From Rickettsiales bacterium (GTDB lineage: Bacteria > Pseudomonadota > Alphaproteobacteria > Rickettsiales > UBA8987), in NCBI GenBank assembly GCA_020630095.1, contig JAHDCD010000004.1:13580-77579 (forward strand): a DNA stretch of 64,000 bases. The letters run 5' to 3'. Shown here piece by piece: positions 10,181-51,954 of this stretch. Below the pieces are notes generated by a model. The model was not told the DNA's origin. It saw only the letters and a program-made list of their open reading frames with translations, and made no database searches. The position numbers and the translations under genes are program-made. Within the stretch, counting starts at the first letter, position 1. Each line of letters opens with the position of its first letter.

Positions 10181-10241
10181 ATTTATTTATATAGTAATAC
10201 GGCAATGTATTACAAGCTATTCGCAGTAATTTTAATAAAAA

Positions 10242-10273
10242 TTAACTAAAGTTTAAGAACTGAATAATATAAT
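10242..10273 (+). promoter_or_regulatory. CtrA-type box TTAAC-N6-TTAAG + N10 + TATAAT, 6 nt before ATT at 10280
   Basis: Reads aTTAACtaaagtTTAAGaactgaataaTATAATtttataATT. The layout is the same as the two downstream paralogue promoters. Confidence 0.5.
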
Positions 10274-10279
10274 TTTATA

Positions 10280-10963: not shown

Positions 10964-10992
10964 TTAAGTATCTATAGATAATTTAATAAAAA

Positions 10993-11024
10993 TTAACCAA
11001 ATCTTAAGAAATATGCTTTAAAAT
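10993..11024 (+). promoter_or_regulatory. CtrA-type box TTAAC-N6-TTAAG + N10 + TAAAAT, 6 nt before the ATG at 11031
   Basis: Reads aTTAACcaaatcTTAAGaaatatgcttTAAAATacccatATG. It is nearly identical to 13214-13251. Confidence 0.6.
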
Positions 11025-11030
11025 ACCCAT

Positions 11031-30010: not shown

Positions 30011-31522
30011 TTGGGATCTCATGAAAATTCTATATTTGAGAAAATGGACTTTAATTTACTTTTAAAAGGCTTGGTAAAAAAGGATTTTCCTACGTTTATG
30101 AGGAAGTGCTTTTCTACCGTTAACCCAGGGATTAGGTATCAGCATAATTGGCATTTAGATTTAATTGCCGAATATTTAGATGCCATAGATAAGGGGCAGA
30201 TTAAGCGCCTGATAATTAATATTCCACCACGTTATTTGAAATCATTCACTTGCAATGTGACCTACCCTGCTTGGGTGCTAGCGAATAATCCTACAAAGCG
30301 AGTTATATCTGTTTCGTATAGCCAAGCTCTTAGCTTAAAACATTCTATTGATTCGCGCGCGCTAGTTGAAAGTAAATGGTTTAAGCAATGTTTTAAAGAT
30401 TGTGCGCTGTTGGCGGATCAGAATGAAAAACATAAGTTTATGACCGAACAGCGCGGCTTCCGCTTTGCGACATCTGTTGGTGGCACGCTTACCGGCGAAG
30501 GTGGAGATTTAATTATTATAGATGACCCGCAGAACCCGATTAACATCCATAATCATGCGTATCGTGAGCATAGTATGGAATGGTTTTCCACTGTGCTTTC
30601 CAGCCGTTTAGATGATAAGAAAAACGGCGCAATGTTACTTGTTATGCAACGTTTGCATGAGGAGGATTTAACAGGAAAACTACTTAAACGCGGTGGCTGG
30701 GAGCATTTATCTATCTCCGCTCTGAATGAAAATGAAATTACTTATTATAGTTTTAAACAAATAAAAGCAAAAGAGTCGAATAAAGAATCTGTTATAGCTA
30801 TAACAGATTTTATTGATAATAATCTATTTAATTCAATAAGATCTGAATATTTAAGAAAGCCTAATTCTCCTTTACATTTTACACGTGAAGGATTTGATGA
30901 GTTGGATCAAATAAAGGCCGATTTGGGTGATCATGCATTTGCCGCGCAATATTTACAAAATCCTGCCCCCGCTAAAGATGGTATGGTTAGGCGCGATTGG
31001 CTATGTTATATATCTGAACCCTCTGAAGCGCCTGAGCAGATAATTTATTCATGGGATACGGCAATTAAAACTGCATCGCATAATGATTATACAGTTTGCA
31101 CGCGCTGGAAGACTTATAAGAATTTCTATTTCTTGGATAATTTATATCGCGGTAAATTGGAATACCCTGAACTGCTTAATTTAATTGATGAATTTAGTGC
31201 AGATGCTGATGTGGTATTGCTAGAGGATAAAGCCTCTGGGCAGTCTTTAATTCAAGACTTACGGAAGAATAGTAATCATCCTGTAATTGCCATTACCCCA
31301 CATAAAGATAAATTAACGCGCTTTGCGGCAACAACTCCGCTATTTGAGGCGAGTAAAGTAAAGATTAATCAGGATAGAGATTGGCGCATAGATTTAGAGC
31401 GTGAATTGCTAACATTTCCGAACTCAAAACACGATGACCAAGTAGATTCAATTAGCCAGTTTTTAAACTATATGAAAAATAGAAAGATAGAAATTTCTAA
31501 GCCCAACTTACGGAGGTTTTAA
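30011..31522 (+). CDS. phage terminase large subunit-like protein (orphan)
   Basis: Contains a Walker A-like IINIPPRYLKS, a Walker B DLIIIDDPQNP, and C-terminal RNaseH-like nuclease Asp motifs (YSWDTA, KHDDQVDS). The start may be the TTG at 30011 or the ATG at 30044. Confidence 0.8.
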   Translation: MGSHENSIFEKMDFNLLLKGLVKKDFPTFMRKCFSTVNPGIRYQHNWHLDLIAEYLDAIDKGQIKRLIINIPPRYLKSFTCNVTYPAWVLANNPTKRVISVSYSQALSLKHSIDSRALVESKWFKQCFKDCALLADQNEKHKFMTEQRGFRFATSVGGTLTGEGGDLIIIDDPQNPINIHNHAYREHSMEWFSTVLSSRLDDKKNGAMLLVMQRLHEEDLTGKLLKRGGWEHLSISALNENEITYYSFKQIKAKESNKESVIAITDFIDNNLFNSIRSEYLRKPNSPLHFTREGFDELDQIKADLGDHAFAAQYLQNPAPAKDGMVRRDWLCYISEPSEAPEQIIYSWDTAIKTASHNDYTVCTRWKTYKNFYFLDNLYRGKLEYPELLNLIDEFSADADVVLLEDKASGQSLIQDLRKNSNHPVIAITPHKDKLTRFAATTPLFEASKVKINQDRDWRIDLERELLTFPNSKHDDQVDSISQFLNYMKNRKIEISKPNLRRF

Positions 31523-36497: not shown

Positions 36498-36573
36498 GAT
36501 CTCGTAGCTCAGTCGGTAGAGCAACTGACTTTTAATCAGTGGGTCGGGAGTTCGAGCCTCCCCGAGATCACCA
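36498..36573 (+). tRNA. tRNA-Lys (anticodon UUU)
   Basis: Cloverleaf read by hand. The acceptor GATCTCG pairs with CGAGATC. The D arm is GCTCAGTCGGTAGAGC, the anticodon loop is CTTTTAA, and the T arm is GGGAG-TTCGAGC-CTCCC. The discriminator is A and CCA is encoded. Confidence 0.93.
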
Positions 36574-36781: not shown

Positions 36782-37132
36782 ATGATAGACACTTACGAAA
36801 AAGCCTCTGCTCAAATGCTAGCTGCACTATGTGTCCGTAATACATTTCTTGAAGATTTGCATTCTGGAACCGTTCCAACTTCAAAAACTGGAGATTATTC
36901 AGACATTACTGTTAAAACTCCTTATGGTGAAATACCATGGAATGAAGTTTCACGTTTAAATGACGATGAAATGAAAATACTAATGAAAGAAGTTGTTAGT
37001 AAGCTTTACACCTTTTTTCAAAATCAAAATGATGATGATTTTATGGACGGCTTTGTAAATACAGCAATGAGATATATTGAGCATTGGGATGAGCCCAAAA
37101 TTGATAGTAGATTATTGTCTTTTAAGAATTAA
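36782..37132 (+). CDS. hypothetical protein (116 aa)
   Basis: ORF only. Confidence 0.4.
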   Translation: MIDTYEKASAQMLAALCVRNTFLEDLHSGTVPTSKTGDYSDITVKTPYGEIPWNEVSRLNDDEMKILMKEVVSKLYTFFQNQNDDDFMDGFVNTAMRYIEHWDEPKIDSRLLSFKN

Positions 37133-37224: not shown

Positions 37225-39885
37225 ATGAATCAAGCGCAAGTTGAAAAGAAGCTAAGTGAGTTAGTTAGGAATATAAATAAAGAAGATTTTATATATGATT
37301 TTCTTATGTGCTACGGCATACCCAAAGCTACCATTACCTTAATGAAGAAAGGTAGTAGAGATTTATCAAAGGTTGAGCATCAAAAAATACTAAAGAAGAA
37401 AATATTCTTTCATGAAGAACTTAATGGCGGCAGTTTATACGAGGCTATTGATAAGTTAAAAAATGATAGTTCAACATTCAAGCATGACCCTAATTTTATA
37501 ATAGTAACCGATTATAAAAACATTGTCGCAATTGATGTTAAAGCAAATGATACTTTAGACTCCGAAATAGAAAATCTTCATAAGAAGTATGATTTCTTTT
37601 TACCTTTAGCAGGTATGAAGAAATATAATGTTGCTGATGAAAATGAAGCTGATGTTAAAGCTGCAGAAAGAATGGCAAAGCTTTACGATCAGTTGCAGAG
37701 CGATAATGAGTTTGAAACAGAACAAGAAATTCATCACTTAAACATCTTCTTATCTCGCCTATTATTCTGCTTTTTCGCTGAAGATACTGATATGTTTGAA
37801 GGTGGAGATAACATCTTCACAAATTCAATTAAAAGCCATACCCAAGAAGATGGCTCAGATTTAAATGTATATTTAGATAGGTTATTTGAAGCACTTAACA
37901 CTACATCAAGAGATGATTACCCAGACCATTTTTCTAATTTTGATTATGTAAATGGTGGCTTATTTGCTGAAAATATTAAAGCCCCTCAATTCACAAGAAA
38001 ATCAAAAAGATTAATTGAAGATTTAGGCGAGCTTGATTGGTCTGAAATTAATCCTGATATTTTCGGTTCAATGATTCAGGCCGTTATCACCCCTGAACAT
38101 AGGGGTGGTTTGGGCATGCACTACACATCTGTGCCTAATATCATGAAGGTTATTGAGCCTTTATTCCTTGATGAGCTAAAGGAAGAATTTAAAAAGAATC
38201 ATAACAATGAAAAGAAACTAAATAAGCTACTTTTACGGTTAGAGAAAATTAAAATTTTCGACCCTGCCTGTGGTTCAGGTAATTTCTTAATTATTGCCTA
38301 TAAAGAACTTAGAGAGCTTGAGATTAATATATTCGTTAGAATTAACGAGCTTTCGCAATCAAGGCAGCTTCCGCTATCTCGAATTAAATTATCTCAATTT
38401 TACGGTATAGAGCTTGATGATTTTGCCCATGAAATAGCCATTTTATCACTATGGCTTTCTGAGCATCAGATGAATAAATTATTTAAAGAAAAGTTTGGCG
38501 ATGCTCCAAACCTTCTGCCTTTAAAGCCAAGCGGCAATATTGTTCATGGCAATGCAACCAGAATTGATTGGGAAGAAGTTTGCCCTAAAGAAAAAGATGA
38601 TGAAATCTATATTTTGGGCAACCCTCCTTATTTAGGCTCAAGTATGCAAGACGCTACCCAAAAAGAGGATATGGCAATTGTTTTTGATGGGTTTAAAAAT
38701 TATAAAAACTTAGATTACATAGCCTGCTGGTTTTATAAAGGTGCTGAATACATATCGGGCATCAATTCAAAATATGCTTTTGTATCAACTAATTCCATAT
38801 GTCAGGGGGAGCAAGTTGGACTCTTATGGCCTACAATTTTTGATAAAAATATTGAAATTAACTTTGCTTATACTTCATTTAAGTGGAGTAATAGTGCTAA
38901 AAGTAAGGCTAAAGTTATCTGCGTTATAGTTGGTCTAGCCAATAAGCAAGAGTTAAGTAAAAAAATATTTAATGAGATATCTATCTCTGAAGTTAAATCA
39001 ATAACTCCATACTTAACTTCAGGTAGATATGTTAAGCTAGAGAGAAGGTCAAAGAATATAAGCCCTTCATTACAGTCAATGGTTTGGGGGAATAAGGCTA
39101 CAGATGGAGGGAACTTTATATTAACCATTGATGAGGTTAATTCTTTAAAAAATGATTTTCCTGATAGTGTAAAATTTATAAAAAAATATATAGGTTCTGT
39201 AGAGTTTATAAGGGGAGTTGCGAGATGGTGCTTGTGGATAAGGGATAAAGATTTAGATAAAGCAAAAGAGATTCCTTTTATATTTGATAGAATTGAACGG
39301 GTCAAAAATGAAAGACTTTTGAGCAAAGCTGCGTCTACTAGGGCGTCAGCTAATAAGGCTCATAAGTTTATTCAAATACAGGGGGAACCTGATAAAGCCT
39401 TAATTATACCTAGCGTTTCTTCAATCAATAGAGATTACATTCCGATAGGTTTCGTTGAATCTGATACTGTTGTTAATGCTCAATGTTATGTTGTTTATAG
39501 ACCAGAATTTTATCTTTTTGGAGTTCTATCTTCTAAAATGCATATTACTTGGGTTAGAGCCGTAGCAGGTAAGTTGAAAAATGATTTTCGCTATTCTTCG
39601 GCTCTTTGTTACTCATCATTCCCAGTTCCCGAACTAACTGATGCTCAAAAGAAGATAATAGAAGACTGTGCGTTAAATGTTTTAGATGAGCGAGATAGGC
39701 ACCCAACAAAAACAATGGCAGAGCTTTACGACCCTGATAAAATGCCTGATGGCCTCCGCCAAGCCCACAAAATGTTAGATGAAGCGGTTGAAAAATGCTA
39801 TCGCAAAAAACCATTTGAATCAGACGAAGAACGCCTTGAACACCTGTTTAACCTATACGAAAAAATGACATCGGAGGAAGTGTAA
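37225..39885 (+). CDS. MmeI/PglX-family N6-adenine DNA methyltransferase (886 aa), no recognisable N-terminal PD-ExK nuclease motif
   Basis: Motif I is FDPACGSGNFLI and motif IV is GNPPYLGS. The family-typical segments LDWSEINPDIFGSMIQAV...GLGMHYTSVPNIMKVIEPLFLDEL and the C-terminal AELYDPDKMPDGLRQAHKMLDEAV are collinear with MmeI as I remember it. Confidence 0.85.
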   Translation: MNQAQVEKKLSELVRNINKEDFIYDFLMCYGIPKATITLMKKGSRDLSKVEHQKILKKKIFFHEELNGGSLYEAIDKLKNDSSTFKHDPNFIIVTDYKNIVAIDVKANDTLDSEIENLHKKYDFFLPLAGMKKYNVADENEADVKAAERMAKLYDQLQSDNEFETEQEIHHLNIFLSRLLFCFFAEDTDMFEGGDNIFTNSIKSHTQEDGSDLNVYLDRLFEALNTTSRDDYPDHFSNFDYVNGGLFAENIKAPQFTRKSKRLIEDLGELDWSEINPDIFGSMIQAVITPEHRGGLGMHYTSVPNIMKVIEPLFLDELKEEFKKNHNNEKKLNKLLLRLEKIKIFDPACGSGNFLIIAYKELRELEINIFVRINELSQSRQLPLSRIKLSQFYGIELDDFAHEIAILSLWLSEHQMNKLFKEKFGDAPNLLPLKPSGNIVHGNATRIDWEEVCPKEKDDEIYILGNPPYLGSSMQDATQKEDMAIVFDGFKNYKNLDYIACWFYKGAEYISGINSKYAFVSTNSICQGEQVGLLWPTIFDKNIEINFAYTSFKWSNSAKSKAKVICVIVGLANKQELSKKIFNEISISEVKSITPYLTSGRYVKLERRSKNISPSLQSMVWGNKATDGGNFILTIDEVNSLKNDFPDSVKFIKKYIGSVEFIRGVARWCLWIRDKDLDKAKEIPFIFDRIERVKNERLLSKAASTRASANKAHKFIQIQGEPDKALIIPSVSSINRDYIPIGFVESDTVVNAQCYVVYRPEFYLFGVLSSKMHITWVRAVAGKLKNDFRYSSALCYSSFPVPELTDAQKKIIEDCALNVLDERDRHPTKTMAELYDPDKMPDGLRQAHKMLDEAVEKCYRKKPFESDEERLEHLFNLYEKMTSEEV

Positions 39886-40419
39886 ATGAAGTGGAAGGAC
39901 TTACATACCTTAGGTTATGATCAATCAGGAAATATTAATATACCAGCCTTGCAGGATTCTTTACCTGATACGCCACTAGAAGTTCATGAAGATTTACTTT
40001 CTGGCTTTGGTAAAAACGATGATTTCCTTGAGTTATACGGTGATATTGACTTATCAAAAATTAAGTGGGAGAAGCATAAATTGAGAGCAAAAGAGCTTGT
40101 TGAATGTAGCTACTATAATAAATACTCCGACTGGCTTGAAGGTATGTCAGAGAGAATGGATAATTATAGCACTTTAGGATGGGATTGTTTACATCACACC
40201 GAAAAAGTTATGAATTATTGGAAAAACAATTCAACTTGGTATAGAAGACCCATCTTCTTTGATTTTGATCCTAGCAGTATATCTCAAGAAAAATGCCTTA
40301 GACTTTTAGAGGGGCATACTCGAATAGGTATTTTAAAGGGTGCATTAAAAAACAATATCTTAGACAAAAATAGTGAGCATGAAATATGGCTAGGTAAACT
40401 ACTGGGAGGACATAATTAA
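39886..40419 (+). CDS. small protein of unknown function (177 aa), possible ParB/Srx-like LLEGHTR motif
   Basis: The start abuts the methyltransferase stop (TAAATG). LRLLEGHTRIGIL faintly resembles the DGHHR motif of ParB-like domains. Confidence 0.45.
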   Translation: MKWKDLHTLGYDQSGNINIPALQDSLPDTPLEVHEDLLSGFGKNDDFLELYGDIDLSKIKWEKHKLRAKELVECSYYNKYSDWLEGMSERMDNYSTLGWDCLHHTEKVMNYWKNNSTWYRRPIFFDFDPSSISQEKCLRLLEGHTRIGILKGALKNNILDKNSEHEIWLGKLLGGHN

Positions 40420-41699
40420 TGACTAAATGGGAAGATAAACTGGGTAATTCAGGACTAATTGCAGAATTTGAAGAAATGGAGGGTTTGATACCTCAAGTTG
40501 AAGACATACTTGATGAAGATGACTTCACTGAGTTCCGAAGGTTTAAAAAGGTTTTTAAATATTGCAAAGAAATTATAGAACAAATAGACCCCGAATTGAT
40601 TCCTTCACAGTTTTATAGCTTATTTAATAAAAATAACGCTATTAACAACAGCTTAAGGCAATTTATATCTACAAAAAATTCATCAAATATAACAGCTGCT
40701 TCAAATGGCATTGATGTCTATTTAAATAATATTAATAATCTTGCTCCACTATTAAAGAGAACAGCAAATTTAAAGCCCTTAAAAGGTTTGGAAGAACTGA
40801 CTGATAAAGCTATTGAAAAACTCAAAGAAGAGGAAAAAAGTCTTAAAGAAAAGTTATCAAAGTTAGACTTGGAAATTAAAAATCGAAAAAAGCAAATCGA
40901 AACACTTGATCAATCTTTAGAGAGTAAAAAATCACAGATCGACAACTTTGTTAATGATTGGCAAGAAAAATTTGCTTCTTCACAAGAATCAAGATCAACT
41001 TCATTTAACGATGAGTTAAAAGATAAGGGTAAAAAATATGATGAATGGTATTCAAAAACTAGGGAAGAAGTTCAAAAGGAAATAGATAGTTTCTATAAAA
41101 GTAATTCTGAAAAATCAAAAGTTGAATACGATTCATTTAATGACAAAATTACAAAATTCATAGAAAGTGCTAATGGGAAGCATAATGAAATCATTAACTT
41201 ATACCAATTGGTTGCAAAGGATAGTGTCGCTGGTGGGCATGAATCTAATGCAGAAAAAGAAAAGAAGTCTGCTAATATTTGGAGATGGGGTGTAATTGGT
41301 TCGGTAGTTGTGATTGTAGTGTGGAATATGTTTTCGCATTTAGTTGGCTTTAGTATAACTAATGAGAAAAATGAATTAGATATCTATTCTCTTGTTAAAT
41401 CCTTAACAATTAATTTAGTAACATTTTTTGTAATTGGATATTCGTCAAAGCAATCGGCCATGCACAGAAAGAAAGAGCATGAGGCTAGAAAGTTTGCTCT
41501 TGAAACTCAGGCATTTGATCCATTTATCTCATCATTAGAGAAAACTGAACGAGATGAGCTTAAAGTTAAAATTACCGAACACCTTTTTAAGGCTAATGAT
41601 TCTGATAAAAATTTAGATATATCTAAAAATGATTTCGATATATCTGATAAAACTCTGACTAAAATTGTGGAATTAATAAAAGCATTTAAAGATAAATAA
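40419..41699 (+). CDS. coiled-coil protein with two C-proximal TM helices (426 aa)
   Basis: The start overlaps the upstream stop (TAATGA). Contains a long heptad-like region EEKSLKEKLSKLDLEIKNRKKQIETLDQSLESKKSQIDNF. The TM segments are IWRWGVIGSVVVIVVWNMFSHLV and LVKSLTINLVTFFVIGYS. Confidence 0.6.
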   Translation: MTKWEDKLGNSGLIAEFEEMEGLIPQVEDILDEDDFTEFRRFKKVFKYCKEIIEQIDPELIPSQFYSLFNKNNAINNSLRQFISTKNSSNITAASNGIDVYLNNINNLAPLLKRTANLKPLKGLEELTDKAIEKLKEEEKSLKEKLSKLDLEIKNRKKQIETLDQSLESKKSQIDNFVNDWQEKFASSQESRSTSFNDELKDKGKKYDEWYSKTREEVQKEIDSFYKSNSEKSKVEYDSFNDKITKFIESANGKHNEIINLYQLVAKDSVAGGHESNAEKEKKSANIWRWGVIGSVVVIVVWNMFSHLVGFSITNEKNELDIYSLVKSLTINLVTFFVIGYSSKQSAMHRKKEHEARKFALETQAFDPFISSLEKTERDELKVKITEHLFKANDSDKNLDISKNDFDISDKTLTKIVELIKAFKDK

Positions 41700-41703
41700 T
41701 AAT

Positions 41704-43626
41704 ATGCCAAATATAATAGATTTAAAATATGAGCAAACTGGTGCTAGTACGAAACATAATAAAATGGGTATGCGAGATATGCAGGCTCAGGCTTATGAAA
41801 AACGTGCAGCACAATATCTGCTAATCAAAGCTCCACCTGCATCAGGTAAGTCTAGGGCTTTAATGTTTTTGGGGTTGGATAAGCTTCATAATCAAGGCTT
41901 AAAGAAGGTGATAGTTGCTGTGCCTGAGAGGTCTATTGGCTCTTCATTTGCACCTACTGATTTATCTAGTTTTGGCTTCTTTACTGATTGGAACCCAAGC
42001 CCTGAATATAATTTATGTACTGCAGGAGATTCAACGAGCAAAGTTAAAAAATTCGTTCGTTTCCTTAATTCTGACGAGCAAATTCTTATATGCACACATG
42101 CAACGCTAAGATTTGCTTATGAGCAGCTTGAAGAGGAGCAGTTTAATGATTGCGTACTTGCAATTGATGAGTTCCATCATGTTTCATCTGATAATGAGTC
42201 TAGTCGCTTAGGTAATTTATTAGGTAATATTATGGCTAAATCTAATGCTCATGTTGTGGCAATGACAGGCTCATATTTTAGAGGCGATGGCGTTGCTGTT
42301 TTATCTCCTGATGATGAGGCTAATTTTGATAAGGTAACTTATAATTATTACGAACAGTTAAACGGCTATAGCTATCTTAAAACGCTTGGTATTGGCTATC
42401 ATTTTTATCAAGGGAAATATACATCTGCAATAAGTGAAGTGCTAGATACTGATAAGAAAACTATTATTCATATTCCAAGCCCTAATGCAGGTGAATCTAC
42501 TAAAGATAAATATGCGGAGGTTGATACTATAATAGGAATTATTGGAGAGGTTGAATCTGAAGATTTTGATACTGGTGTAATTAATGTTAAGCGTAAATCT
42601 GATGGTAAAATTATAAAGGTTGCTAATTTAGTTCATGAAGAAGGTAGAGAGCGAGTTCAAGAGTTTCTTCGTAATGTTAATTCTGTTGATGATATTGATA
42701 TTATAATTGCATTAGGAATGGCTAAGGAGGGCTTTGACTGGCCATATTGTGAGCATGCACTTACAGTAGGATATAGAGGCTCTTTAACAGAGGTTATTCA
42801 AATTATAGGTCGCTGTACAAGAGATTCGGATAATAAGAGCCATGCTCAATTTACTAATCTTATTATTGAACCAGATGCAGCTAGCGATGAAGTTAATGTT
42901 GCAGTTAATAATATGCTTAAAGCTATTACCTGCTCACTTTTAATGGAGCAGATTATGGCTCCAGTATTTAAGTTTAAGCCTAAATTATCCGATGATGAAA
43001 AATCAAAAGGTAATAATGTTCTTATCAAAGGTTTAAAAGTTCCGAGCTCTAAAAAAGTTAAAGATATTTTAGAGTCTGATTTAAATGATTTAAAAGCTAA
43101 AATTCTTCAAGATAAACAAGTTGAGGAATCTATATCGGGCGCTATTGAGCCTGAAATTATGAATAAGGTAGTTATTCCAAGAATTATTAGGGAGAAATAC
43201 CCAGACTTAGATAAAGAGCAGGTTGAAGAAATTAGGCAGCACGTGGTTGCTGATTCAGTTCTTAAAGGTGCGAAAATTGATAATAGTGGGGATCAAAGAT
43301 TCTTAATAATGTCTAGTAAGTTTATCAATATTGATGAGCTTGAAATTGATTTAATTGATAAGATAAACCCATTCCAAGATGCTTATGAAATTATGTCTAA
43401 GAATGTTGATAAGAAAACTCTAAAAGCAATCAAGGATCATATAGATTCTAATAGGTCTAGCATTACTGAGGAGGAAGCCCTTTATCTATGGCAAAATAAG
43501 ACCATTCAAACATTCGTAGAAAATAATGGCAGTGAACCTGACTTAAATGCTAACAATCCATTAGAAGTAAGAATGGCTGAGGCATTGGCTTATTTGCGAA
43601 ATATGAAGCGTCAGTTAGCAAGTTAG
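41704..43626 (+). CDS. SF2 DExH-box helicase (ResIII-like, 640 aa)
   Basis: Contains Walker A KAPPASGKSR, DExH box AIDEFHH, motif III MTGSYFRG and motif VI QIIGRCTRD. Confidence 0.85.
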   Translation: MPNIIDLKYEQTGASTKHNKMGMRDMQAQAYEKRAAQYLLIKAPPASGKSRALMFLGLDKLHNQGLKKVIVAVPERSIGSSFAPTDLSSFGFFTDWNPSPEYNLCTAGDSTSKVKKFVRFLNSDEQILICTHATLRFAYEQLEEEQFNDCVLAIDEFHHVSSDNESSRLGNLLGNIMAKSNAHVVAMTGSYFRGDGVAVLSPDDEANFDKVTYNYYEQLNGYSYLKTLGIGYHFYQGKYTSAISEVLDTDKKTIIHIPSPNAGESTKDKYAEVDTIIGIIGEVESEDFDTGVINVKRKSDGKIIKVANLVHEEGRERVQEFLRNVNSVDDIDIIIALGMAKEGFDWPYCEHALTVGYRGSLTEVIQIIGRCTRDSDNKSHAQFTNLIIEPDAASDEVNVAVNNMLKAITCSLLMEQIMAPVFKFKPKLSDDEKSKGNNVLIKGLKVPSSKKVKDILESDLNDLKAKILQDKQVEESISGAIEPEIMNKVVIPRIIREKYPDLDKEQVEEIRQHVVADSVLKGAKIDNSGDQRFLIMSSKFINIDELEIDLIDKINPFQDAYEIMSKNVDKKTLKAIKDHIDSNRSSITEEEALYLWQNKTIQTFVENNGSEPDLNANNPLEVRMAEALAYLRNMKRQLAS

Positions 43627-43629
43627 ATT

Positions 43630-44778
43630 ATGGATAAAGATGAATTATTAGATATTTTAGGAGATGACTCTTTAGGCTTACTTAATGTTAAGCCTAAAGC
43701 AAAAGCCGTTACTGCTGATGAAAGGCTTGTAGAAACTCTTGAGCAGATTAATGCCTTCTATGATGAAAATGGAAAGGAGCCAGAGTTAACTAGCGATTTA
43801 ACAGAAAGAAAGTTATTTAATCATTTAAAATCCATTAGAGAAAATGAACAGTTTATTGAGTCTTTATTGCCTCTGGATAAATTTTCTTTGCTAAAAAAAA
43901 CTAAAAAGAAATCCACTAATGAACTTTTAGATGATGATGAATTTGGATTGTTAGACTCAGCTTCGGATAGTATCTTCACTTTAAAGCATATTAAAAAAGT
44001 TGATAAAACTAGCCCAGATTACATAGCCCGCAGAAAACCCTGTAAAGACTTCACGCTATTCAATGAAAAGTTTATTAAATGTCATGAAGATATACAATCT
44101 GGCAACAGGAAGATACTAGATTTTAAAAGAGGTGAAGATATGCGTGTAGGCCATTTCTTCGTTTTGAAGGGAATGCTAGTTTATATAGATGAAATCAATA
44201 ATGTTAGAAAAGATGACCATGGAAAATTAGATGCCAGATTAAGAGCTATATTTGAAAATGGAACTGAATCAGACTTGCTTTTAAGGTCTTTAGCTAAAGA
44301 ATTATATAAAGATGGTAGAAGAGTTAGTGAAATTAAAGGCTCTGGTCTTGAAGAGTTAACTTCAGCTAATGAAGAAGAATTAACAGGTTATATCTATGTA
44401 CTTAAATCTTTAAGTAAGAAACCACAAATACAAGATTGCAAAAATTTATATAAAATAGGTTTTTGCACAACCTCAGTTGAAGATAGAATTAAGGGAGCAG
44501 AAACTGATCCGACTTACCTTATGGCACCAGTTGCAATAGTTGAAAAGGCAATTTGTTATGGTGCTAAAGCCAAGCAATTTGAAAGCTTGATTCACAGGTT
44601 TTTTGACTCTGCTAGGCTTGATATAGAAGTAACAGAAAATGATGGATACAAATATAAGCCTAACGAATGGTTTAATGTCCCTCTATCCGAAATTAATAAG
44701 GCTATCGACTTGTTAGATAATGGACAGATTATTAATTATAAATTCAATTCCAGTAAGGATTGTATAGAACTAATTTAA
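43630..44778 (+). CDS. T5orf172/Mug113 (GIY-YIG superfamily) domain protein (382 aa)
   Basis: The C-terminal GYIYVLKSLS...LYKIGFCTTSVEDRIKG...LIHRFFDSARL...NEWFNVPLSEINKAIDLL matches the T5orf172 pattern. Confidence 0.75.
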   Translation: MDKDELLDILGDDSLGLLNVKPKAKAVTADERLVETLEQINAFYDENGKEPELTSDLTERKLFNHLKSIRENEQFIESLLPLDKFSLLKKTKKKSTNELLDDDEFGLLDSASDSIFTLKHIKKVDKTSPDYIARRKPCKDFTLFNEKFIKCHEDIQSGNRKILDFKRGEDMRVGHFFVLKGMLVYIDEINNVRKDDHGKLDARLRAIFENGTESDLLLRSLAKELYKDGRRVSEIKGSGLEELTSANEEELTGYIYVLKSLSKKPQIQDCKNLYKIGFCTTSVEDRIKGAETDPTYLMAPVAIVEKAICYGAKAKQFESLIHRFFDSARLDIEVTENDGYKYKPNEWFNVPLSEINKAIDLLDNGQIINYKFNSSKDCIELI

Positions 44779-44970
44779 CTTTTTTACTTGCAAGTGCAAC
44801 CTAGTGTTGCTATAGTGCAACACTTATCAACTTTGTGCATTTAATAAAATGTGTTTAGTTATGCTTTTTTTAGATTAAATTGAAAAAAATTATAAAAGGC
44901 ACTTCCGAACTTATTTTTAATGTGTTTAAGCTGATATATTAACAGGTTAAGTTACTTAAGGAGGTGACGT

Positions 44971-47402: not shown

Positions 47403-48254
47403 TTAAGAAGATGAGATAGCTTGCCGTGTATCAGTTCTAAGCCAGTTAGAACCGTCAGAAAATGCCGTTATCGGCAGTCCATTTGCTCCGTTAGATACGA
47501 ATATTATTGAACCATAATAAGTTGAAGCATTTGGTACATTTGAAACATTATAAGATTGCCCTTTAGCAGGATTATTGAAATAGCAATCTTTCTTGAAATC
47601 TATATTGCCGTTATCTTTATTAACCTTGAAAGACTCAAACCAGTTTGAGCCATCAGATACTTTTAAGGTAAAGCTATTGTCAGCAATTAAGCCAAATTCT
47701 GCAAAGCCAGTAAAAGCCTTTTGGAATATGAAGGAAGCAGTGTTAGCATCAGCATTTTTATTGAGCTTAACTCGAATATCTGTGCCATTATGATTAAGTA
47801 ATACTGCATCTGAAGCTACAGCAAGTTTATTGATACTATCCGCACTAGTATTGATACCAAGCATAGGTAAAGTGCTGATTGTGCCACCGCCACCCGAACC
47901 ACCGGCTTCAACCCAGCTTGAGCCGTCATAGGCATATAAAGCATCTTCATCATTTACCCATATTACAAAACCTTCATTGGGAATAATAAAACGCCATGCC
48001 TGATAATACCAAGCAATCTGCCCTTCTTTGCCAGTCCAGTCGCCAGTTGCAGAAGTTCCTACAATATACATATCGCCATTGTTAGGCGATGATGGTGGTG
48101 AAGATAAGTCCTTATCCTTAACGCCAGAATTAAGCAGTGCATCAATTACAATAAGAGCTTCATTAACCGTTACTTCTTTTTGGCTTTGACTCTGTTCGAG
48201 TAAGTCGAATCCTAAATTAGTTACTTGTGCCATGTGCAGGATAACCTCTGCCAA
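47403..48254 (-). CDS. DUF2793-type tail fibre/receptor-binding-like protein
   Basis: The N-terminal EQSQSQKEVTVNEALIVIDALL motif, and the position right after the g15-like gene, match GTA-type clusters. Confidence 0.65.
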   Translation of the reverse strand: MAEVILHMAQVTNLGFDLLEQSQSQKEVTVNEALIVIDALLNSGVKDKDLSSPPSSPNNGDMYIVGTSATGDWTGKEGQIAWYYQAWRFIIPNEGFVIWVNDEDALYAYDGSSWVEAGGSGGGGTISTLPMLGINTSADSINKLAVASDAVLLNHNGTDIRVKLNKNADANTASFIFQKAFTGFAEFGLIADNSFTLKVSDGSNWFESFKVNKDNGNIDFKKDCYFNNPAKGQSYNVSNVPNASTYYGSIIFVSNGANGLPITAFSDGSNWLRTDTRQAISSS

Positions 48255-51200
48255 CTATTGCTGATAGCTGGTAGATATTGAATGATATATTGTTTTGAGC
48301 CGTGCCGAAATCAGCAATTTGCATTGCCTCTGTATAAGTAAAATTACTAGTCGTTGCTTGATACGAAGCTATTTCGTTACCATTATCTAGTATTGTAATT
48401 TCGTATTTTTCAGATTCTTCAGAAAGTGGAATATCAACAAAGTCTTTCCAATCTCCGCCAAGCCTCGTGCGCCTTAGCCATGAAATCTCAAAATCATTAG
48501 CTGATTTATTAACCTCAATATTTACAGGCGAATAAGGCTTTAGTGTTTTTGCAGCATAAGTAAATGGTTGCTCTTGCGTTTCTACTATATTATCGCCTGA
48601 AGTAACGCCCTTGTAATGACGCTCTGAATTAAACAGAGAACTAACTACATCAATTTTAGAGATAGAGTTATCAAGCAGGATAAACCTATCGCCTATATCA
48701 TGATTAGCTATTTCGTGTTCTGTGCCATATCTGCCGCGCAGGAAGTTAGATAATCTGTAATATTTATCGCCAATTAAGCTTGCCGTTTGAAATTGCACTA
48801 ACTCGTTATTTATTAAAGCTAAGTTAGAACCATTAAGCATTTGAGCCTTGGTTACAGATGATAATTCACCTTCAATTAGCTGAACTTCAACTTCAGAATC
48901 AATATCTGTAATATTGCCTTCATGTATGGTTGAAAGAGTATTTAAGCAAGCACCTATTACTGAATAATTATCTGTGCTTGATATTGAGCCAAAATTATTG
49001 CCACCGCCAACTCCGCCATCATCAGAGCGATAAGTTATAGCACCTTGCCAGTTTTCACCTAGTGGAGCTACGGCAATTCTTAGTTTGCCTAAATTATCAA
49101 CATCTTCTTCTAATGCAGGAATATCAATAAGCTCAAGCTTAGTATCTGGTAAGATATAACCGATATCTTCATTCGATTCTGATAAACCAACTGGAATATA
49201 GAAATCATACGAGCTTATATCTTCAGCTACGCCTTGAACTTCCATTAAGCCGTTTCGTTCAATATTAATCTTATTGATGCGGATTTGATGGGTAACACCT
49301 TGAACCTCAACATCAATAATATCTGTAGGTTCTAAATAAGCATATTTAGGCGGAATAATTAGGCTATATGATGTTCTTCTTATCCAAGAGTTATAAAGCG
49401 TAATATCGGCTATATTACGCCCTTGCTGGTCATTTAGAACGATTGGTAAGTTCAAGCCTACTTTTTCAATAGCATTAACAGTATGACGCTGTGAACGCTG
49501 AACAGATGGATCGTAATTAGCAATTCGACTAATATATGAGATATTAACCTCTTTCGGTAATTCCAACTCTTGTGTGCGAGTTATCTGTAAAACATCTCGA
49601 ATATTGCCATCTTTATTGAGCGGAACAAGCTCATCTTGAGCTATGTTAGCAACCGCATCACTTCCACGCCTTTTGAATTTTAAGATACCGTCAGATTCGA
49701 CCATATCAAAAAAGTATGCTGCTTGCAGATGCTCTATAACCTGCCTAACGGTGCTTATTTGCATCCTGATATAGCCATCAACAATATCAGTAAGCTCAGA
49801 TACATCAAAGTCTGAATCTAACAGCCCTACTTTGCATAAATGATGAGCAATTATTGCCCCTAATGTTGAATTGCCTAATTTGCCTTGAACCCAATGGCCG
49901 CTTGAATATAGCCTAGCATCAGCCCATACGCTCTCAAAATCTGGCCATAAAGGGTAAGGTCTAGCATCCCATGTCCATAAAAAAGCTCTAGGTGTTAAAC
50001 CAGATTCCGCTTGATTGCGTTCTGTTAAATAATCAATAGTAGCTTCTAAGGCTTCTCTTTGAGCTACATAATCTATTCTGCCTTTTGAAGCTCTAGGGTA
50101 ATGGCTTTCTGATGAGGTAGGATCATAAAATACATTTGGTTGATTTGCAGCCCCATCTAAAGAAGGAAAGCCAAACTCCGTAAACCATACAGGCTTTGAT
50201 TTTGGAACCCATGCGGTATTATTGCCATCAGGGTTTTGATGTGTGTTAGACCACCAATATTCAAGATTTTTCCATGCGTATTTATTATCTGAATAATTGG
50301 TTTTGCCAGTACGATTTGCTGAATCTAAGTAATAATAGTCCCAACCTTCGCCAGATTCCCAGCCTTGCTTGATTTTATCATAAGTTATTTGAGCTTGTGG
50401 TAAGTCATCAGTTAATGGGAAATAAGCATCTATACCGATAAAATCTATATCAGGTGAAGCCCAAAGCGGATCCATATTGAACCAACCATTAACTGAATGA
50501 TACTCGCTCCAGTCCGCAGCGTAAGTTACTGCAACAGAACTACCAACAGCAGATTTTACAAGTGAAGCTAGATTAACGAATTGGTCAACAACGGGGTAAA
50601 CTCCACTAGTTTCAGTAAAATTGGTTAAGCCTCGAAGTTCTGAACCAATTACGATAGCAGAAATTAGGTCTTTCAAATTTACCGAATCGACCTGAAGATT
50701 AGCGTAATGTAATATGTAATCATTGTAGCCATTAACTTTTGTGAAGAAATTATTAGCATCAGCGGTGCTTTGCGGTGTTATTCTGCCTCGCCATGGCTTA
50801 GGGTTAGGCTCTGTTTCATCAACAAATATCATGGGGTAAAGCATGATATTTAAGCCTCTATTCTTAAGCTCTTGGCATATCTCAATTATGCTTCTGTCTG
50901 ATGGTGTACCGCCATAGGTAATTGAGCCATCAGGCAGAGTAAGTACCATTTGAGCGGTATGTCTATTCAGCCCTGCAACTTCCCATTCATAAGGTTCAGT
51001 TGATGTAGTATCTGCATTATATTCAACTTTAGGGATTACATCGCAAGCTCCTGCATCTGTTGATGTGCCGAACCAAGTTACCACTAGCGCCACCCATTCT
51101 AGGTTTGGCAGAGTTTCTTGGAGCTTATCTAGCGAAGGTAAAACATTCGCCACACCCTCAAAATTGTGCATGTTTATAGACTCTTTCTTTCCATTAGGAT

Positions 51201-51954
51201 TGAAAGTGCCATAGGCATAATATCCTGTGATTTTTTGATATACAGATGTTGAATATACGAACTCGCCCGCCCCAGGTATTAAAACTATGTCCGTTACCTT
51301 ATCTTCTAATGCAGGTGTGAAGCGGATATTACGCTTAACTTCAAAAGTAAAATTTGGAATACGGTTACCGAATTTAAGTAATGGCAAATCTTCAATTACA
51401 ATATAAGCAAGCCCTCTATAAGCTGGAACATTACCAACACCTTCAAAAGATTCTATTATCGGGTCAGGCAATTGCTCTTCAGTGCCAAGATAGATATTAT
51501 ATTTACCTTCAGCACCATTTACGAAGTTATTATCAATAACTTCAGTATCAGCCCAAGTTTTGACAATTTCTGTTATCTCGCCTTCGCATATACCAATGGC
51601 AAGTGTAGCGTAATACTCATAAGTATTGGTTGTTTGTGAAGTAGATGGCCCACCGCCTTTACCTTGCTGTTGAGTATTAGTTTGAGATTTCTTAACCTCT
51701 TTGATCTCTTGAGCCCATATAATATTGCCGGCTAACCTTGCTGTGCCGAATATTTCAGGGATGGACTTGCCATAATTTGAGGTTTGTATTCTTAAGTCAG
51801 CTAGTCTAGGCCCTTCTACCGTTGGTTGCTCAATAGTATCTGCACCAAAGGTTCTTGATAATATAGTGCCAATTCCTGCACCTAATTTAGCACCGGTTGG
51901 ACCGCCGATAATGAAGCCACCTACAGCTCCTATTACTGGTAATGCGGAAGTCAT
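48217..51954 (-). CDS. host-specificity/central tail protein, RcGTA g15-like (1245 aa)
   Basis: Size, position after the NlpC/P60 gene, and a Gly-rich N-terminus. A central glycoside-hydrolase/TIM-barrel-like region is typical of GTA g15 homologues (from memory). Confidence 0.7.
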   Translation of the reverse strand: MTSALPVIGAVGGFIIGGPTGAKLGAGIGTILSRTFGADTIEQPTVEGPRLADLRIQTSNYGKSIPEIFGTARLAGNIIWAQEIKEVKKSQTNTQQQGKGGGPSTSQTTNTYEYYATLAIGICEGEITEIVKTWADTEVIDNNFVNGAEGKYNIYLGTEEQLPDPIIESFEGVGNVPAYRGLAYIVIEDLPLLKFGNRIPNFTFEVKRNIRFTPALEDKVTDIVLIPGAGEFVYSTSVYQKITGYYAYGTFNPNGKKESINMHNFEGVANVLPSLDKLQETLPNLEWVALVVTWFGTSTDAGACDVIPKVEYNADTTSTEPYEWEVAGLNRHTAQMVLTLPDGSITYGGTPSDRSIIEICQELKNRGLNIMLYPMIFVDETEPNPKPWRGRITPQSTADANNFFTKVNGYNDYILHYANLQVDSVNLKDLISAIVIGSELRGLTNFTETSGVYPVVDQFVNLASLVKSAVGSSVAVTYAADWSEYHSVNGWFNMDPLWASPDIDFIGIDAYFPLTDDLPQAQITYDKIKQGWESGEGWDYYYLDSANRTGKTNYSDNKYAWKNLEYWWSNTHQNPDGNNTAWVPKSKPVWFTEFGFPSLDGAANQPNVFYDPTSSESHYPRASKGRIDYVAQREALEATIDYLTERNQAESGLTPRAFLWTWDARPYPLWPDFESVWADARLYSSGHWVQGKLGNSTLGAIIAHHLCKVGLLDSDFDVSELTDIVDGYIRMQISTVRQVIEHLQAAYFFDMVESDGILKFKRRGSDAVANIAQDELVPLNKDGNIRDVLQITRTQELELPKEVNISYISRIANYDPSVQRSQRHTVNAIEKVGLNLPIVLNDQQGRNIADITLYNSWIRRTSYSLIIPPKYAYLEPTDIIDVEVQGVTHQIRINKINIERNGLMEVQGVAEDISSYDFYIPVGLSESNEDIGYILPDTKLELIDIPALEEDVDNLGKLRIAVAPLGENWQGAITYRSDDGGVGGGNNFGSISSTDNYSVIGACLNTLSTIHEGNITDIDSEVEVQLIEGELSSVTKAQMLNGSNLALINNELVQFQTASLIGDKYYRLSNFLRGRYGTEHEIANHDIGDRFILLDNSISKIDVVSSLFNSERHYKGVTSGDNIVETQEQPFTYAAKTLKPYSPVNIEVNKSANDFEISWLRRTRLGGDWKDFVDIPLSEESEKYEITILDNGNEIASYQATTSNFTYTEAMQIADFGTAQNNISFNIYQLSAIVGRGYPAHGTSN

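What the first reader, a model, noticed from the sequence alone, without database searches (positions are those of the whole stretch)
37225..44778. Five-gene translationally coupled operon beside tRNA-Lys: nuclease-less MmeI/PglX-type methyltransferase, small protein, 2-TM coiled-coil protein, DExH helicase and T5orf172/GIY-YIG protein
Seen in sequence: five same-strand ORFs have abutting or overlapping stop/start codons. The junctions are TAAATG at 39885/39886, TAATGA at 40417-40421, a 4 nt gap at 41699/41704 and a 3 nt gap at 43626/43630. They encode the following products:
- An 886 aa protein with the methyltransferase motifs DPACGSGNFLI and NPPYLGS and MmeI-family signature blocks. I cannot find a D...ExK nuclease motif in the N-terminal ~80 residues where MmeI has one.
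- A 177 aa unknown protein.
- A 426 aa coiled-coil protein with two TM helices.
- A 640 aa SF2 helicase (PPASGKS, DEFH, QIIGRCTRD).
- A 382 aa T5orf172-domain protein.
Established knowledge: MmeI-like enzymes normally fuse nuclease and methylase in one chain, and BREX PglX is a nuclease-less relative. T5orf172 belongs to the GIY-YIG nuclease superfamily.
Inference: this is a split restriction-like or BREX-like defence system in which specificity/methylation, translocation and cleavage sit on separate polypeptides, with an added membrane component. From memory, the methyltransferase-helicase-T5orf172 trio resembles Bacillus subtilis yeeA-yeeB-yeeC, which is itself functionally uncharacterised. 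The two middle genes make this variant distinct. The location, a tRNA-adjacent island next to a prophage end, is a typical defence hotspot.
Basis: partly seen in the sequence, partly recalled or inferred. Interest (0 to 1): 0.88.

Follow-up and report, generated by a model that had tools for sequence, protein, structure and literature searches.

The report
Split MmeI-type restriction operon with cargo
This is a member of a three-gene restriction-like system first described in 2009 (nuclease-less MmeI-type methyltransferase, helicase and GIY-YIG-type nuclease), and its two extra middle genes are most likely swappable passenger genes in a slot that holds other anti-phage genes in related genomes.

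Summary
In detail: there are five intact, tightly abutting same-strand ORFs with the stated motifs, next to tRNA-Lys and a prophage end.

- **Core trio.** The methyltransferase, helicase and T5orf172 protein belong to the YeeA(DnmA)/YeeB/YeeC family. Morgan et al. 2009 described it and proposed the same split-restriction mechanism. In 80 related loci the helicase and T5orf172 genes are always coupled, and the PD-ExK nuclease motif is missing in 61 of 61 methyltransferases.
- **Middle genes.** They do not define a conserved five-component system. The methyltransferase|helicase junction is a variable slot: empty in 39 of 67 loci and filled in 26. Fillings include Gabija, SIR2-HerA, AbiU, RhuM, Schlafen/AlbA_2 and PDC-S06/S42.
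- **426 aa membrane coiled-coil protein.** It recurs in this slot in two other loci, lies upstream of the methyltransferase in a third, and a distant relative sits in a type I R-M locus.
- **177 aa protein.** It belongs to an uncurated family of about 190 clusters, possibly with a ParB/Srx-like fold. It occurs in no other locus of this system and elsewhere follows assorted defence genes.

Novelty is limited to the cargo and to the slot itself. Interest is moderate.

The parts
36498..36573 (+). tRNA-Lys (anticodon UUU). It marks the chromosomal side of the island.
   Evidence: ARAGORN. No second copy of its 3' end occurs in the window, so no att-type boundary can be defined.
37225..39885 (+). 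YeeA/DnmA-type methyltransferase: an MmeI homologue with all five MmeI domains, an intact SAM-binding motif (DPACGSGNF), an intact catalytic motif (NPPY) and a target-recognition domain. Its N-terminal domain has lost the PD-ExK nuclease triad.
   Evidence: Pfam. PADLOC REase_MTase_IIG 1031 bits. PDB 5hr4 MmeI E 1.6e-188 with D70 deleted, E80 aligned to H and K82 to E. The same loss is seen in 61 of 61 family members.
39886..40419 (+). Embedded cargo gene 1: a 177 aa soluble protein from an uncurated family. It has an invariant L-V-E-G-H-T-R-x-G motif at a strand-to-helix junction and is tentatively ParB/sulfiredoxin-like.
   Evidence: No Pfam, NCBIfam or PADLOC family. phrog_8867 E 3.9e-23. 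190 cluster representatives by exhaustive HMMER. Alignment invariants. AlphaFold pLDDT 94. No PDB neighbour. Weak but consistent ParB/Srx, DndB-like and GmrSD-N matches in BFVD. Absent from 80 other YeeABC loci.
40419..41699 (+). Embedded cargo gene 2: a 426 aa protein with an N-terminal helical bundle, a long coiled coil, a two-helix membrane hairpin (about residues 287-305 and 322-340) and a conserved juxtamembrane motif Y-S-x-K-Q-S-x-x-H-R.
   Evidence: Hydropathy. All-helical AlphaFold model with low confidence, pLDDT 54. Only four distant relatives in 5.8 billion clusters. Relatives occupy the same slot in L007 and L071 at 30-31% identity. A distant relative lies upstream of the methyltransferase in L014. 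Another lies upstream of RhuM and HsdR in L006.
41704..43626 (+). YeeB-type SF2 helicase/translocase (Walker A PPASGKS, DEFH, motif VI QIIGRCTRD) with a conserved C-terminal extension of about 240 aa.
   Evidence: Pfam DEAD/ResIII/Helicase_C. At least 8000 homologous clusters at E<1e-20, some named YeeB. Motifs invariant. 62-67% identity across phyla.
43630..44778 (+). YeeC-type protein: a conserved N-terminal domain of unknown function plus a C-terminal T5orf172 (GIY-YIG superfamily) domain, the presumed nuclease.
   Evidence: Pfam T5orf172 4.1e-12 and MUG113 1.5e-11. G253/Y256, K275-I276-G277, R286, E318, H322 and E346-W347-F348 are conserved in at least 95% of 70 homologues. It always lies -8 to +15 nt after the helicase gene (78 of 78 loci).

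Best explanation
The locus is a YeeA(DnmA)-YeeB-YeeC type split restriction-modification-like system with two passenger genes inserted at its methyltransferase|helicase junction.

**Core system**
- Shown by homology: the MmeI-type subunit recognises a short asymmetric site through its target-recognition domain. By analogy with MmeI and B. subtilis DnmA, it methylates one adenine on one strand.
- Inferred: its catalytically dead N-terminal domain has been kept as a docking or signalling module.
- Inferred: on unmethylated sites it engages the helicase/T5orf172 pair, a tightly coupled motor-plus-nuclease unit that stands in for the missing PD-ExK domain. This pair translocates and cuts foreign DNA. 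The arrangement resembles type I HsdM/S plus HsdR, split one step further.

**The two middle genes**
- They are not subunits of this machine.
- They occupy the same kind of slot in which type I R-M, BREX and Hma loci carry 'embedded' second-line defence genes.
- They are co-expressed with the host operon through translational coupling.
- My best guess (inference): each is an independent accessory defence or abortive-infection factor. The 426 aa protein would be a membrane-anchored coiled-coil effector or sensor. The 177 aa protein would be a ParB/Srx-like nucleotide- or DNA-binding protein.
For: **Trio membership**
- Domain calls.
- Source names 'YeeB' on 66-68% identical helicases.
- Methyltransferase, helicase and T5orf172 synteny in 79 of 80 loci from very diverse phyla.
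- Family-wide loss of D70/E80/K82.
- Family-wide conservation of the helicase motifs and GIY-YIG-type residues.

**Literature**
- Description of the set and of the mechanism hypothesis (PMC2731913).
- DnmA makes m6A at GACGAG, and synteny is conserved (PMC9973331).
- yeeAB knock-outs sensitise Vibrio crassostreae to one phage group (bioRxiv 10.1101/2021.05.05.442762).

**Cargo slot**
- The methyltransferase|helicase gap is at most 100 nt in 39 of 67 loci and 0.57-6.0 kb in 26 of 67. Two more loci have gaps of 147 and 202 nt.
- The helicase|T5orf172 gap is -8 to +15 nt in 78 of 78 loci.
- Slot contents: GajA/GajB (640 and 677 bits), SIR2/HerA (190 and 582 bits), AbiU, PDC-S06/PDC-S42, RhuM, Bro-N, Schlafen AlbA_2, AIPR, DUF1016/YhcG, PDDEXK_3 and DUF488.

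**Independence of the two middle genes**
- The 177 aa family has no member in the 80 loci.
- In its own 19 loci it follows Mrr, RloB, an OLD-like ATPase or a caspase-like protein, never the 426 aa protein, the helicase or T5orf172.
- 426 aa relatives follow the methyltransferase directly, without a 177 aa gene, in L007 and L071.
- One distant 426 aa relative sits in a type I R-M locus, upstream of RhuM and HsdR.

**Precedent for embedding**
- PrrC in EcoprrI, TgvAB in a type I R-M locus, and guilt-by-embedding.
Against: - No biochemical activity has ever been shown for the helicase/T5orf172 pair. YeeA and a Moraxella homologue showed no endonuclease activity alone.
- The B. subtilis locus gave no phage or transformation phenotype.
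- The very tight coupling in the window (TAAATG, TAATG overlap, 4-nt gap) would also fit genes that work together.
- The 426 aa family is adjacent to YeeA-type methyltransferases in 4 of the 6 distinct contexts seen for it. That is more than expected for a freely roaming cargo gene and could mean a functional link with the methyltransferase.
- My survey covers only the best 80 of at least 570 genomic loci.
- The ParB/Srx assignment rests on weak Foldseek scores (E about 1e-3, TM 0.3-0.4).
Confidence: 0.7

Rival explanations
1. Integrated five-component system. In this lineage the 177 aa and 426 aa proteins are true subunits. For example, they might tether the methyltransferase-helicase-nuclease complex to the inner membrane so that it intercepts DNA at the point of entry.
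For: - Abutting or overlapping stop and start codons across all five genes, with no internal promoter or terminator signal above background.
- 426 aa relatives lie directly next to YeeA-type methyltransferases in L007, L071 and L014.
Against: - 39 of 67 loci lack any inserted gene, and 26 of 67 carry unrelated cargo, including whole defence systems.
- The 177 aa family is found in no other YeeABC locus, and its relatives live in unrelated operons.
- The closest relative of the system (L008) carries different cargo.
- A distant 426 aa relative sits in a type I R-M locus, and another lies next to an acetyltransferase.
Confidence: 0.1
2. A relic or non-defence locus. As proposed for B. subtilis DnmA, the methyltransferase acts as an orphan epigenetic regulator and the other genes are decaying or inert.
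For: The B. subtilis dnmA-yeeB-yeeC locus showed no phage protection or transformation barrier, and the DnmA motif is not avoided in phage genomes (PMC9973331).
Against: - All five ORFs are intact and full-length relative to 80 homologues.
- Every catalytic-type motif is preserved.
- The helicase is 62-67% identical across phyla, which implies strong purifying selection on a mobile cassette.
- A Vibrio homologue does protect against phage.
- The slot collects defence genes.
Confidence: 0.1
3. The middle genes are passengers with no defence role. They could be genes of the adjacent prophage or another mobile element (superinfection exclusion, membrane or regulatory functions), or selfish insertions that merely tolerate this site.
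For: - The island abuts a prophage end.
- The 177 aa family matches a phage orthologous group (phrog_8867), and one relative lies on a viral contig with an integrase.
- Neither protein matches any PADLOC model, including the PDC/HEC candidates.
Against: - In their other loci both families neighbour restriction or defence genes: Mrr, RloB, OLD-like ATPase, pPIWI-associated nuclease, HsdR and RhuM.
- The 426 aa family was not found on viral contigs.
Confidence: 0.1

Closest known systems
YeeA(DnmA)-YeeB-YeeC cluster of Bacillus subtilis and the 'second set' of MmeI homologues (Morgan et al. 2009, PMC2731913; Fernandez et al. 2023, PMC9973331)
   Same: - MmeI-homologous methyltransferase without PD-ExK.
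- YeeB-type SF2 helicase.
- T5orf172/GIY-YIG protein.
- Same order and strand, with helicase and nuclease genes coupled.
   Different: - Two extra genes lie between the methyltransferase and the helicase.
- The B. subtilis locus is reported as non-protective.
- The window's proteins match the full-length consensus of 80 homologues.
MmeI / type IIL (IIG) single-chain restriction-modification enzymes
   Same: About 880 residues align end to end with MmeI (E 1.6e-188), covering the same helicase-spacer, methyltransferase, TRD and C-terminal domains. Single-strand m6A protection is expected.
   Different: The catalytic D70-X9-E80-X-K82 triad is absent, so the protein cannot be a self-contained endonuclease. 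It depends on separate proteins. PADLOC's IIG model nevertheless scores 1031 bits.
Type I restriction-modification loci with embedded genes (PrrC in EcoprrI; TgvAB in V. cholerae VPI-2; Campylobacter Rlo genes) and 'guilt-by-embedding' in Hma, BREX and DISARM (Payne et al. 2024)
   Same: - A modification/specificity module and a motor-nuclease module are separated by a slot.
- The slot accumulates unrelated defence genes (RhuM, Schlafen/AlbA_2, PrrC-like ABC ATPases, Gabija and others).
- The cargo is co-oriented and co-transcribed.
   Different: - The host system here is the split MmeI type, which those surveys did not treat as a host.
- The two cargo families in the window are not among the PADLOC HEC/PDC models.
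BREX PglX
   Same: A distant relative of the same methyltransferase superfamily, also nuclease-less.
   Different: PglX models score only 15-36 bits against cut-offs of 400-900 bits. There is no PglZ, BrxC, BrxL or other BREX gene.

Membership tests
YeeA/DnmA-YeeB-YeeC split MmeI-type system | MmeI-homologous methyltransferase that lacks the PD-ExK motif in its N-terminal domain | tested here: met
   all MmeI domains are present. D70 is deleted, E80 aligns with H and K82 with E. The same loss occurs in 61 of 61 relatives.
YeeA/DnmA-YeeB-YeeC split MmeI-type system | Flanking YeeB-type DEAD/SF2 helicase on the same strand | tested here: met
   66-68% identity to proteins that sources name YeeB, with helicase motifs invariant.
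YeeA/DnmA-YeeB-YeeC split MmeI-type system | Flanking YeeC-type GIY-YIG/T5orf172 protein immediately after the helicase | tested here: met
   a 3-nt gap in the window, against a family range of -8 to +15 nt. GIY-YIG-type residues are conserved.
YeeA/DnmA-YeeB-YeeC split MmeI-type system | Direct sequence homology to the B. subtilis YeeA, YeeB and YeeC proteins themselves | not tested
The link rests on source annotations, on Firmicute loci in the same family (L042, L043 and L049) and on the literature.
YeeA/DnmA-YeeB-YeeC split MmeI-type system | Single-strand m6A methylation of an asymmetric site, with restriction dependent on the helicase and nuclease | not testable with these tools
   Needs methylome sequencing and genetics.
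MmeI-type (type IIL/IIG) bifunctional restriction enzyme | N-terminal PD-ExK catalytic triad (MmeI D70, E80, K82) | tested here: not met
BREX | PglX reaching the family cut-off, plus PglZ, BrxC and other BREX genes in the cluster | tested here: not met
   the four PglX models that match (BREX-1, -2, -5, -6) score 15-36 bits against cut-offs of 400-900 bits; none of the other four proteins matches a BREX component.
Type I restriction-modification | Separate HsdS specificity subunit and an HsdR with an HSDR_N nuclease fused to its motor | tested here: not met
   the target-recognition domain is fused to the methyltransferase. The helicase has no HSDR_N domain, and the nuclease is a separate GIY-YIG-type protein.
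Embedded defence cargo ('guilt-by-embedding') | Genes nested between the genes of a multi-gene defence system, with homologues also found outside that system | tested here: met
Embedded defence cargo ('guilt-by-embedding') | Anti-phage activity that is independent of the host system | not testable with these tools
   Neither protein matches a PADLOC model, including HEC/PDC.
ParB/sulfiredoxin fold (177 aa protein) | Structural match to ParB/Srx domains, with the conserved G-x-x-R type motif at a strand-to-helix junction | tested here: inconclusive
   - BFVD matches to ParB/Srx, DndB-like and GmrSD-N proteins are weak: E 1e-3 to 0.1, TM 0.3-0.4.
- No PDB match by Foldseek or by profile.
- The motif E142-G-H-T-R146 lies at strand 139-142 / helix 144-155 of a pLDDT 94 model.

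The most novel reading that the evidence does not exclude
The 426 aa membrane coiled-coil family, and separately the 177 aa ParB/Srx-like family, are new anti-phage genes that specialise in riding inside restriction-modification operons.

The 426 aa protein in particular may act as a PrrC-style back-up. In that model it is held in check by the YeeA-type methyltransferase (or by HsdM/S in type I loci). It would be released to damage the membrane when a phage anti-restriction protein disables the host system.

More broadly, the YeeA|YeeB junction would be a previously unrecognised and rich 'embedding' hotspot for mining new defence genes.
Probability: 0.2. Interest if true: 0.6.

Novelty: new variant of a known kind. 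Interest (0 to 1): 0.4.

Why it matters
**Open question.** The three-gene split MmeI-type system is among the most widespread and most strongly conserved restriction-like cassettes. There are at least 8000 helicase clusters, with 62-67% identity from Candidate Phyla Radiation (CPR) bacteria to Proteobacteria. It still has no name in defence classifiers, no demonstrated nuclease activity, and contradictory phenotypes (Bacillus negative, Vibrio positive).

**What this window adds.** It does not add a new kind of system.

**What the comparison shows.**
- Classifiers would mislabel such loci as type IIG R-M.
- The system behaves like type I R-M in having a modification module and a motor-nuclease module separated by a cargo slot.
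- That slot is a source of candidate defence genes. Two uncharacterised families are nominated here.

Tried and rejected
**Searches that found nothing**
- Megablast of the operon against plasmids and of the prophage side against phages: no match.
- Search for an att-type repeat of the tRNA 3' end, and for direct repeats bounding the island: none.
- Organism identification by exact cluster look-up and contig look-up: every protein is a singleton without a name, on an unnamed NCBI contig of 158,780 bp.
- Viral-contig scans: one 177 aa relative and no 426 aa relative.

**Tool failures and low-quality results**
- The search for related loci with the 40-sequence 177 aa alignment failed as too divergent. 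It worked with 10 sequences.
- The 426 aa AlphaFold model was too poor for fold search (pLDDT 54).
- Its PDB profile search gave only coiled-coil noise.
- Its PADLOC LeoA hit (E 3e-7) and NCBIfam SMC-type hits are attributed to coiled-coil composition.

**Hypotheses rejected**
- The ~167 aa cargo cluster in other slots is a distant 177 aa relative: no profile hit at E<=10.
- The 416 aa two-TM protein after the methyltransferase in L009 is a 426 aa homologue: no hit.
- The locus is BREX, type I R-M, or ARMADA. ARMADA's methyltransferase is only 'YeeA-related' and PglX-like.
- The locus is Hma: no Hma model appears among the PADLOC matches listed for the five proteins.

Full report
**1.

ORF listing and translation give five + strand ORFs at exactly the stated coordinates. 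The junction sequences are:
- TAA|ATG at 39885/39886, with GGAGGAAG upstream.
- A one-base TAATG overlap at 40417-40421, with GGGAGGA upstream.
- A 4-nt gap before the helicase gene.
- A 3-nt gap before the last gene.

Consensus promoter and terminator scans show nothing above the shuffled background inside the operon.

Domain calls:
- Pfam places all five MmeI domains on the 886 aa protein.
- The 640 aa protein carries DEAD, ResIII and Helicase_C.
- The 382 aa protein carries T5orf172/MUG113 at residues 253-361.

The 426 aa protein has two hydrophobic helices, starting at about residues 287 and 322, after a long helical region.

tRNA-Lys lies at 36498-36573. Upstream are argS and a SPOR-domain gene, within ordinary chromosome. 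Downstream, from about 45.3 kb, are a phage-type repressor, a lysozyme and GTA-like tail genes.

**2. The methyltransferase really has no nuclease**

It aligns end to end with the solved MmeI chain 5hr4 (E 1.6e-188). In that alignment MmeI D70 lies in a stretch deleted here, and E80 and K82 align with H and E.

I aligned the N-termini of 61 related methyltransferases with the MmeI segment. D70 is deleted in all 61, E80 is mostly K, and K82 is variable. The N-terminal fold is retained (MmeI_N, E 5.9e-27) but is catalytically dead. This is a family trait, not a local decay.

**3. The trio is a known family**

Morgan et al. 2009 (PMC2731913) described a second set of MmeI homologues, including YeeA of B. 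subtilis and an ORF from Moraxella osloensis.
- These lack PD-ExK and showed no endonuclease activity on their own.
- They are 'invariably' flanked by a DEAD helicase (YeeB) and a GIY-YIG protein (YeeC).

Fernandez et al. 2023 (PMC9973331) renamed YeeA as DnmA, which makes m6A at GACGAG. They confirmed the synteny but found no phage or transformation phenotype in B. subtilis.

Piel et al. (bioRxiv 10.1101/2021.05.05.442762) found that yeeAB inactivation sensitises a Vibrio crassostreae strain to one phage group.

The family is very large. The helicase has at least 8000 homologous clusters at E<1e-20, and several are named YeeB by their sources.

A scan of GTDB species genomes returned 80 loci from Proteobacteria, Bacteroidota, Firmicutes, Planctomycetota, Cyanobacteria and Candidate Phyla Radiation (CPR) lineages. 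Across them:
- Median identity to the window is 64% for the helicase, 52% for the methyltransferase and 41% for YeeC.
- Helicase motifs I, II and VI are invariant.
- The GIY-YIG-type residues of YeeC are conserved in at least 95% of 70 sequences and are present in the window. These are G253/Y256, K275-I276-G277, R286, E318/H322 and E346-W347-F348.

PADLOC recognises only the methyltransferase, as 'REase_MTase_IIG' at 1031 bits. It has no model for YeeC and only weak PbeA and Cas3 hits for the helicase. BREX PglX models score far below their cut-offs.

**4. The two middle genes sit in a variable slot**

In the 80 loci, the helicase and YeeC genes are always coupled, with gaps of -8 to +15 nt in 78 of 78 loci.

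The methyltransferase|helicase junction is different. Of 67 measurable loci:
- 39 have a gap of at most 100 nt.
- 2 have gaps of 147 and 202 nt.
- 26 (39%) carry 0.57-6.0 kb of same-strand genes.

Clustering and family scans of the inserted genes show:
- A complete Gabija system (GajA 640 bits, GajB 677 bits) in L025.
- SIR2-HerA plus a UvrD helicase in L065.
- AbiU/AIPR in L020.
- PDC-S06 (an AAA_13, PrrC-like ABC ATPase) with PDC-S42, followed by a RhuM gene, in L060.
- Recurrent RhuM, Bro-N, Schlafen AlbA_2, PDDEXK_3, DUF1016/YhcG and DUF488 genes.

This is the repertoire known from genes embedded in type I R-M, BREX and Hma loci. Examples are PrrC in EcoprrI, TgvAB, RhuM with PrrC and 'guilt-by-embedding'.

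The slot falls at the same logical place as in type I loci, between the modification/specificity module and the motor-nuclease module.

**5. The 426 aa protein**

Word-indexed search of 5.8 billion clusters finds only four distant relatives.

In the locus survey, relatives at 30-31% identity lie directly after the methyltransferase in L007 (Methyloligella) and L071 (Opitutales), without any 177 aa gene. A profile also finds a shorter subfamily member directly upstream of the methyltransferase in L014.

One distant relative (P0003) lies immediately upstream of RhuM and an HsdR gene, so it is in a type I R-M locus. Another lies next to an acetyltransferase.

Conserved features:
- An N-terminal MSRW and an IDPELIP motif.
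- A W-rich segment before the first TM helix.
- A Y-S-x-K-Q-S-x-x-H-R motif after the second TM helix.
- Basic residues on both flanks, which suggests an N-in/C-in hairpin (inference).

The AlphaFold model is all-helical but of low confidence (pLDDT 54). No curated family or solved structure matches beyond coiled-coil noise.

**6. The 177 aa protein**

The word-indexed search found only the protein itself. Exhaustive HMMER found 190 cluster representatives, 111 of them at E<=1e-10, mostly 165-180 aa. It also matches phrog_8867.

The family has an invariant E-G-H-x-R core within L-V-E-G-H-T-R-x-G, plus three invariant tryptophans.

A pLDDT 94 model has no PDB neighbour by Foldseek (best E 0.35) or by profile. 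Its best viral-library matches are weak (E 1e-3 to 0.1, TM 0.3-0.4). They are, however, consistently ParB/sulfiredoxin, DndB-like and GmrSD N-terminal proteins. The motif sits at a strand-to-helix junction, as the corresponding motif does in ParB/Srx domains. That last comparison is from my own knowledge of the fold.

In 19 metagenomic loci the family never co-occurs with the 426 aa protein, the helicase or YeeC. Instead it typically follows the following genes:
- Mrr.
- RloB.
- An OLD-like ATPase pair.
- A caspase-like protein.

Other copies precede a pPIWI-associated nuclease or a UvrD helicase.

Its profile finds nothing anywhere in the 80 YeeABC loci.

**7. Synthesis**

The best-supported reading is a standard YeeABC core carrying two independently acquired embedded genes. 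The cargo turns over quickly. L008 is among the window's two closest relatives (58%, 66% and 51% identity for the three core proteins) and carries a Schlafen/AlbA_2 gene in the slot. L007, equally close, carries only a 426 aa relative.

The tight coupling in the window shows co-expression, not co-function.

What remains open is the repeated adjacency of the 426 aa family to R-M methyltransferase modules. That pattern is compatible with a PrrC-like guard relationship.

**8. Limits**

- The survey used the best 80 of at least 570 loci.
- No experiment links the helicase/YeeC pair to cleavage.
- The organism is unidentified. It has low GC content and a GTA-type prophage tail, which hints at an alphaproteobacterium; this is inference only.
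- Island boundaries could not be defined.

Noticed in passing
window 37225-39885: PADLOC's 'REase_MTase_IIG' model scores 1031 bits on this nuclease-less methyltransferase. The helicase gets only weak PbeA and Cas3 hits, and YeeC gets none. Automated classifiers would therefore call such loci type IIG R-M and miss the other two core genes.
   Followed up: partly
L007-L086 (helicase at about 10001-11920 in most loci): The YeeB helicase is 62-67% identical (median 64%) to the window across very distant phyla, including Saccharibacteria, Magasanikbacteria and Paceibacterota. This is far more conserved than its partner methyltransferase (median 52%) or YeeC (median 41%).
   Followed up: partly
window 36782-37132; L008 3573-3884 (- strand): The 116 aa ORF between tRNA-Lys and the operon matches no family. 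It has a 45% identical homologue 2.4 kb upstream of the methyltransferase in the Rickettsiales MAG locus L008, so it may travel with the cassette.
   Followed up: no
window 30011-31522: A lone terminase large-subunit-like ORF (Terminase_6C) sits among housekeeping genes (metG, greA, argS), away from the prophage downstream of the island.
   Followed up: no
L102 7914-8522 and 9515-12475 (- strand): A 177 aa family member lies about 1 kb from a second, divergent MmeI-like gene (986 aa, all MmeI domains) on the opposite strand. It follows an OLD-like ATPase pair.
   Followed up: partly
L009 7477-8727: A 416 aa protein with two predicted TM helices lies directly after the methyltransferase, in the same position as the window's 426 aa protein. 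It shows no detectable sequence relationship to it and may be an analogue.
   Followed up: partly
window 43630-44380 (YeeC residues 1-250): The N-terminal half of YeeC has residues conserved in at least 95% of 70 homologues (R135, R203, F208-E209-N210-G211-T212) but matches no Pfam family. It is an uncharacterised conserved domain of the core system.
   Followed up: no
window 44793-44824: Just after the operon's stop codon there is an inverted repeat, AGTGTTGC (44803-44810) / GCAACACT (44817-44824). It overlaps two direct copies of AGTGCAAC (44793 and 44814). It is not followed by a T-run, so it is more likely an operator-like site than a terminator.
   Followed up: no
L020, L026, L043: In three other loci a tRNA-Leu, tRNA-Arg or tmRNA gene lies directly upstream of the methyltransferase, as tRNA-Lys does in the window. 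12 of 40 loci have a tRNA or tmRNA within 10 kb.
   Followed up: partly
window 48217-51954 (- strand): The adjacent prophage encodes a 1245 aa tail protein with GTA_TIM, Phage-tail_3 and Rcc01698_C domains, next to a DUF2793 protein. This is a gene-transfer-agent-like tail module of the alphaproteobacterial type.
   Followed up: no
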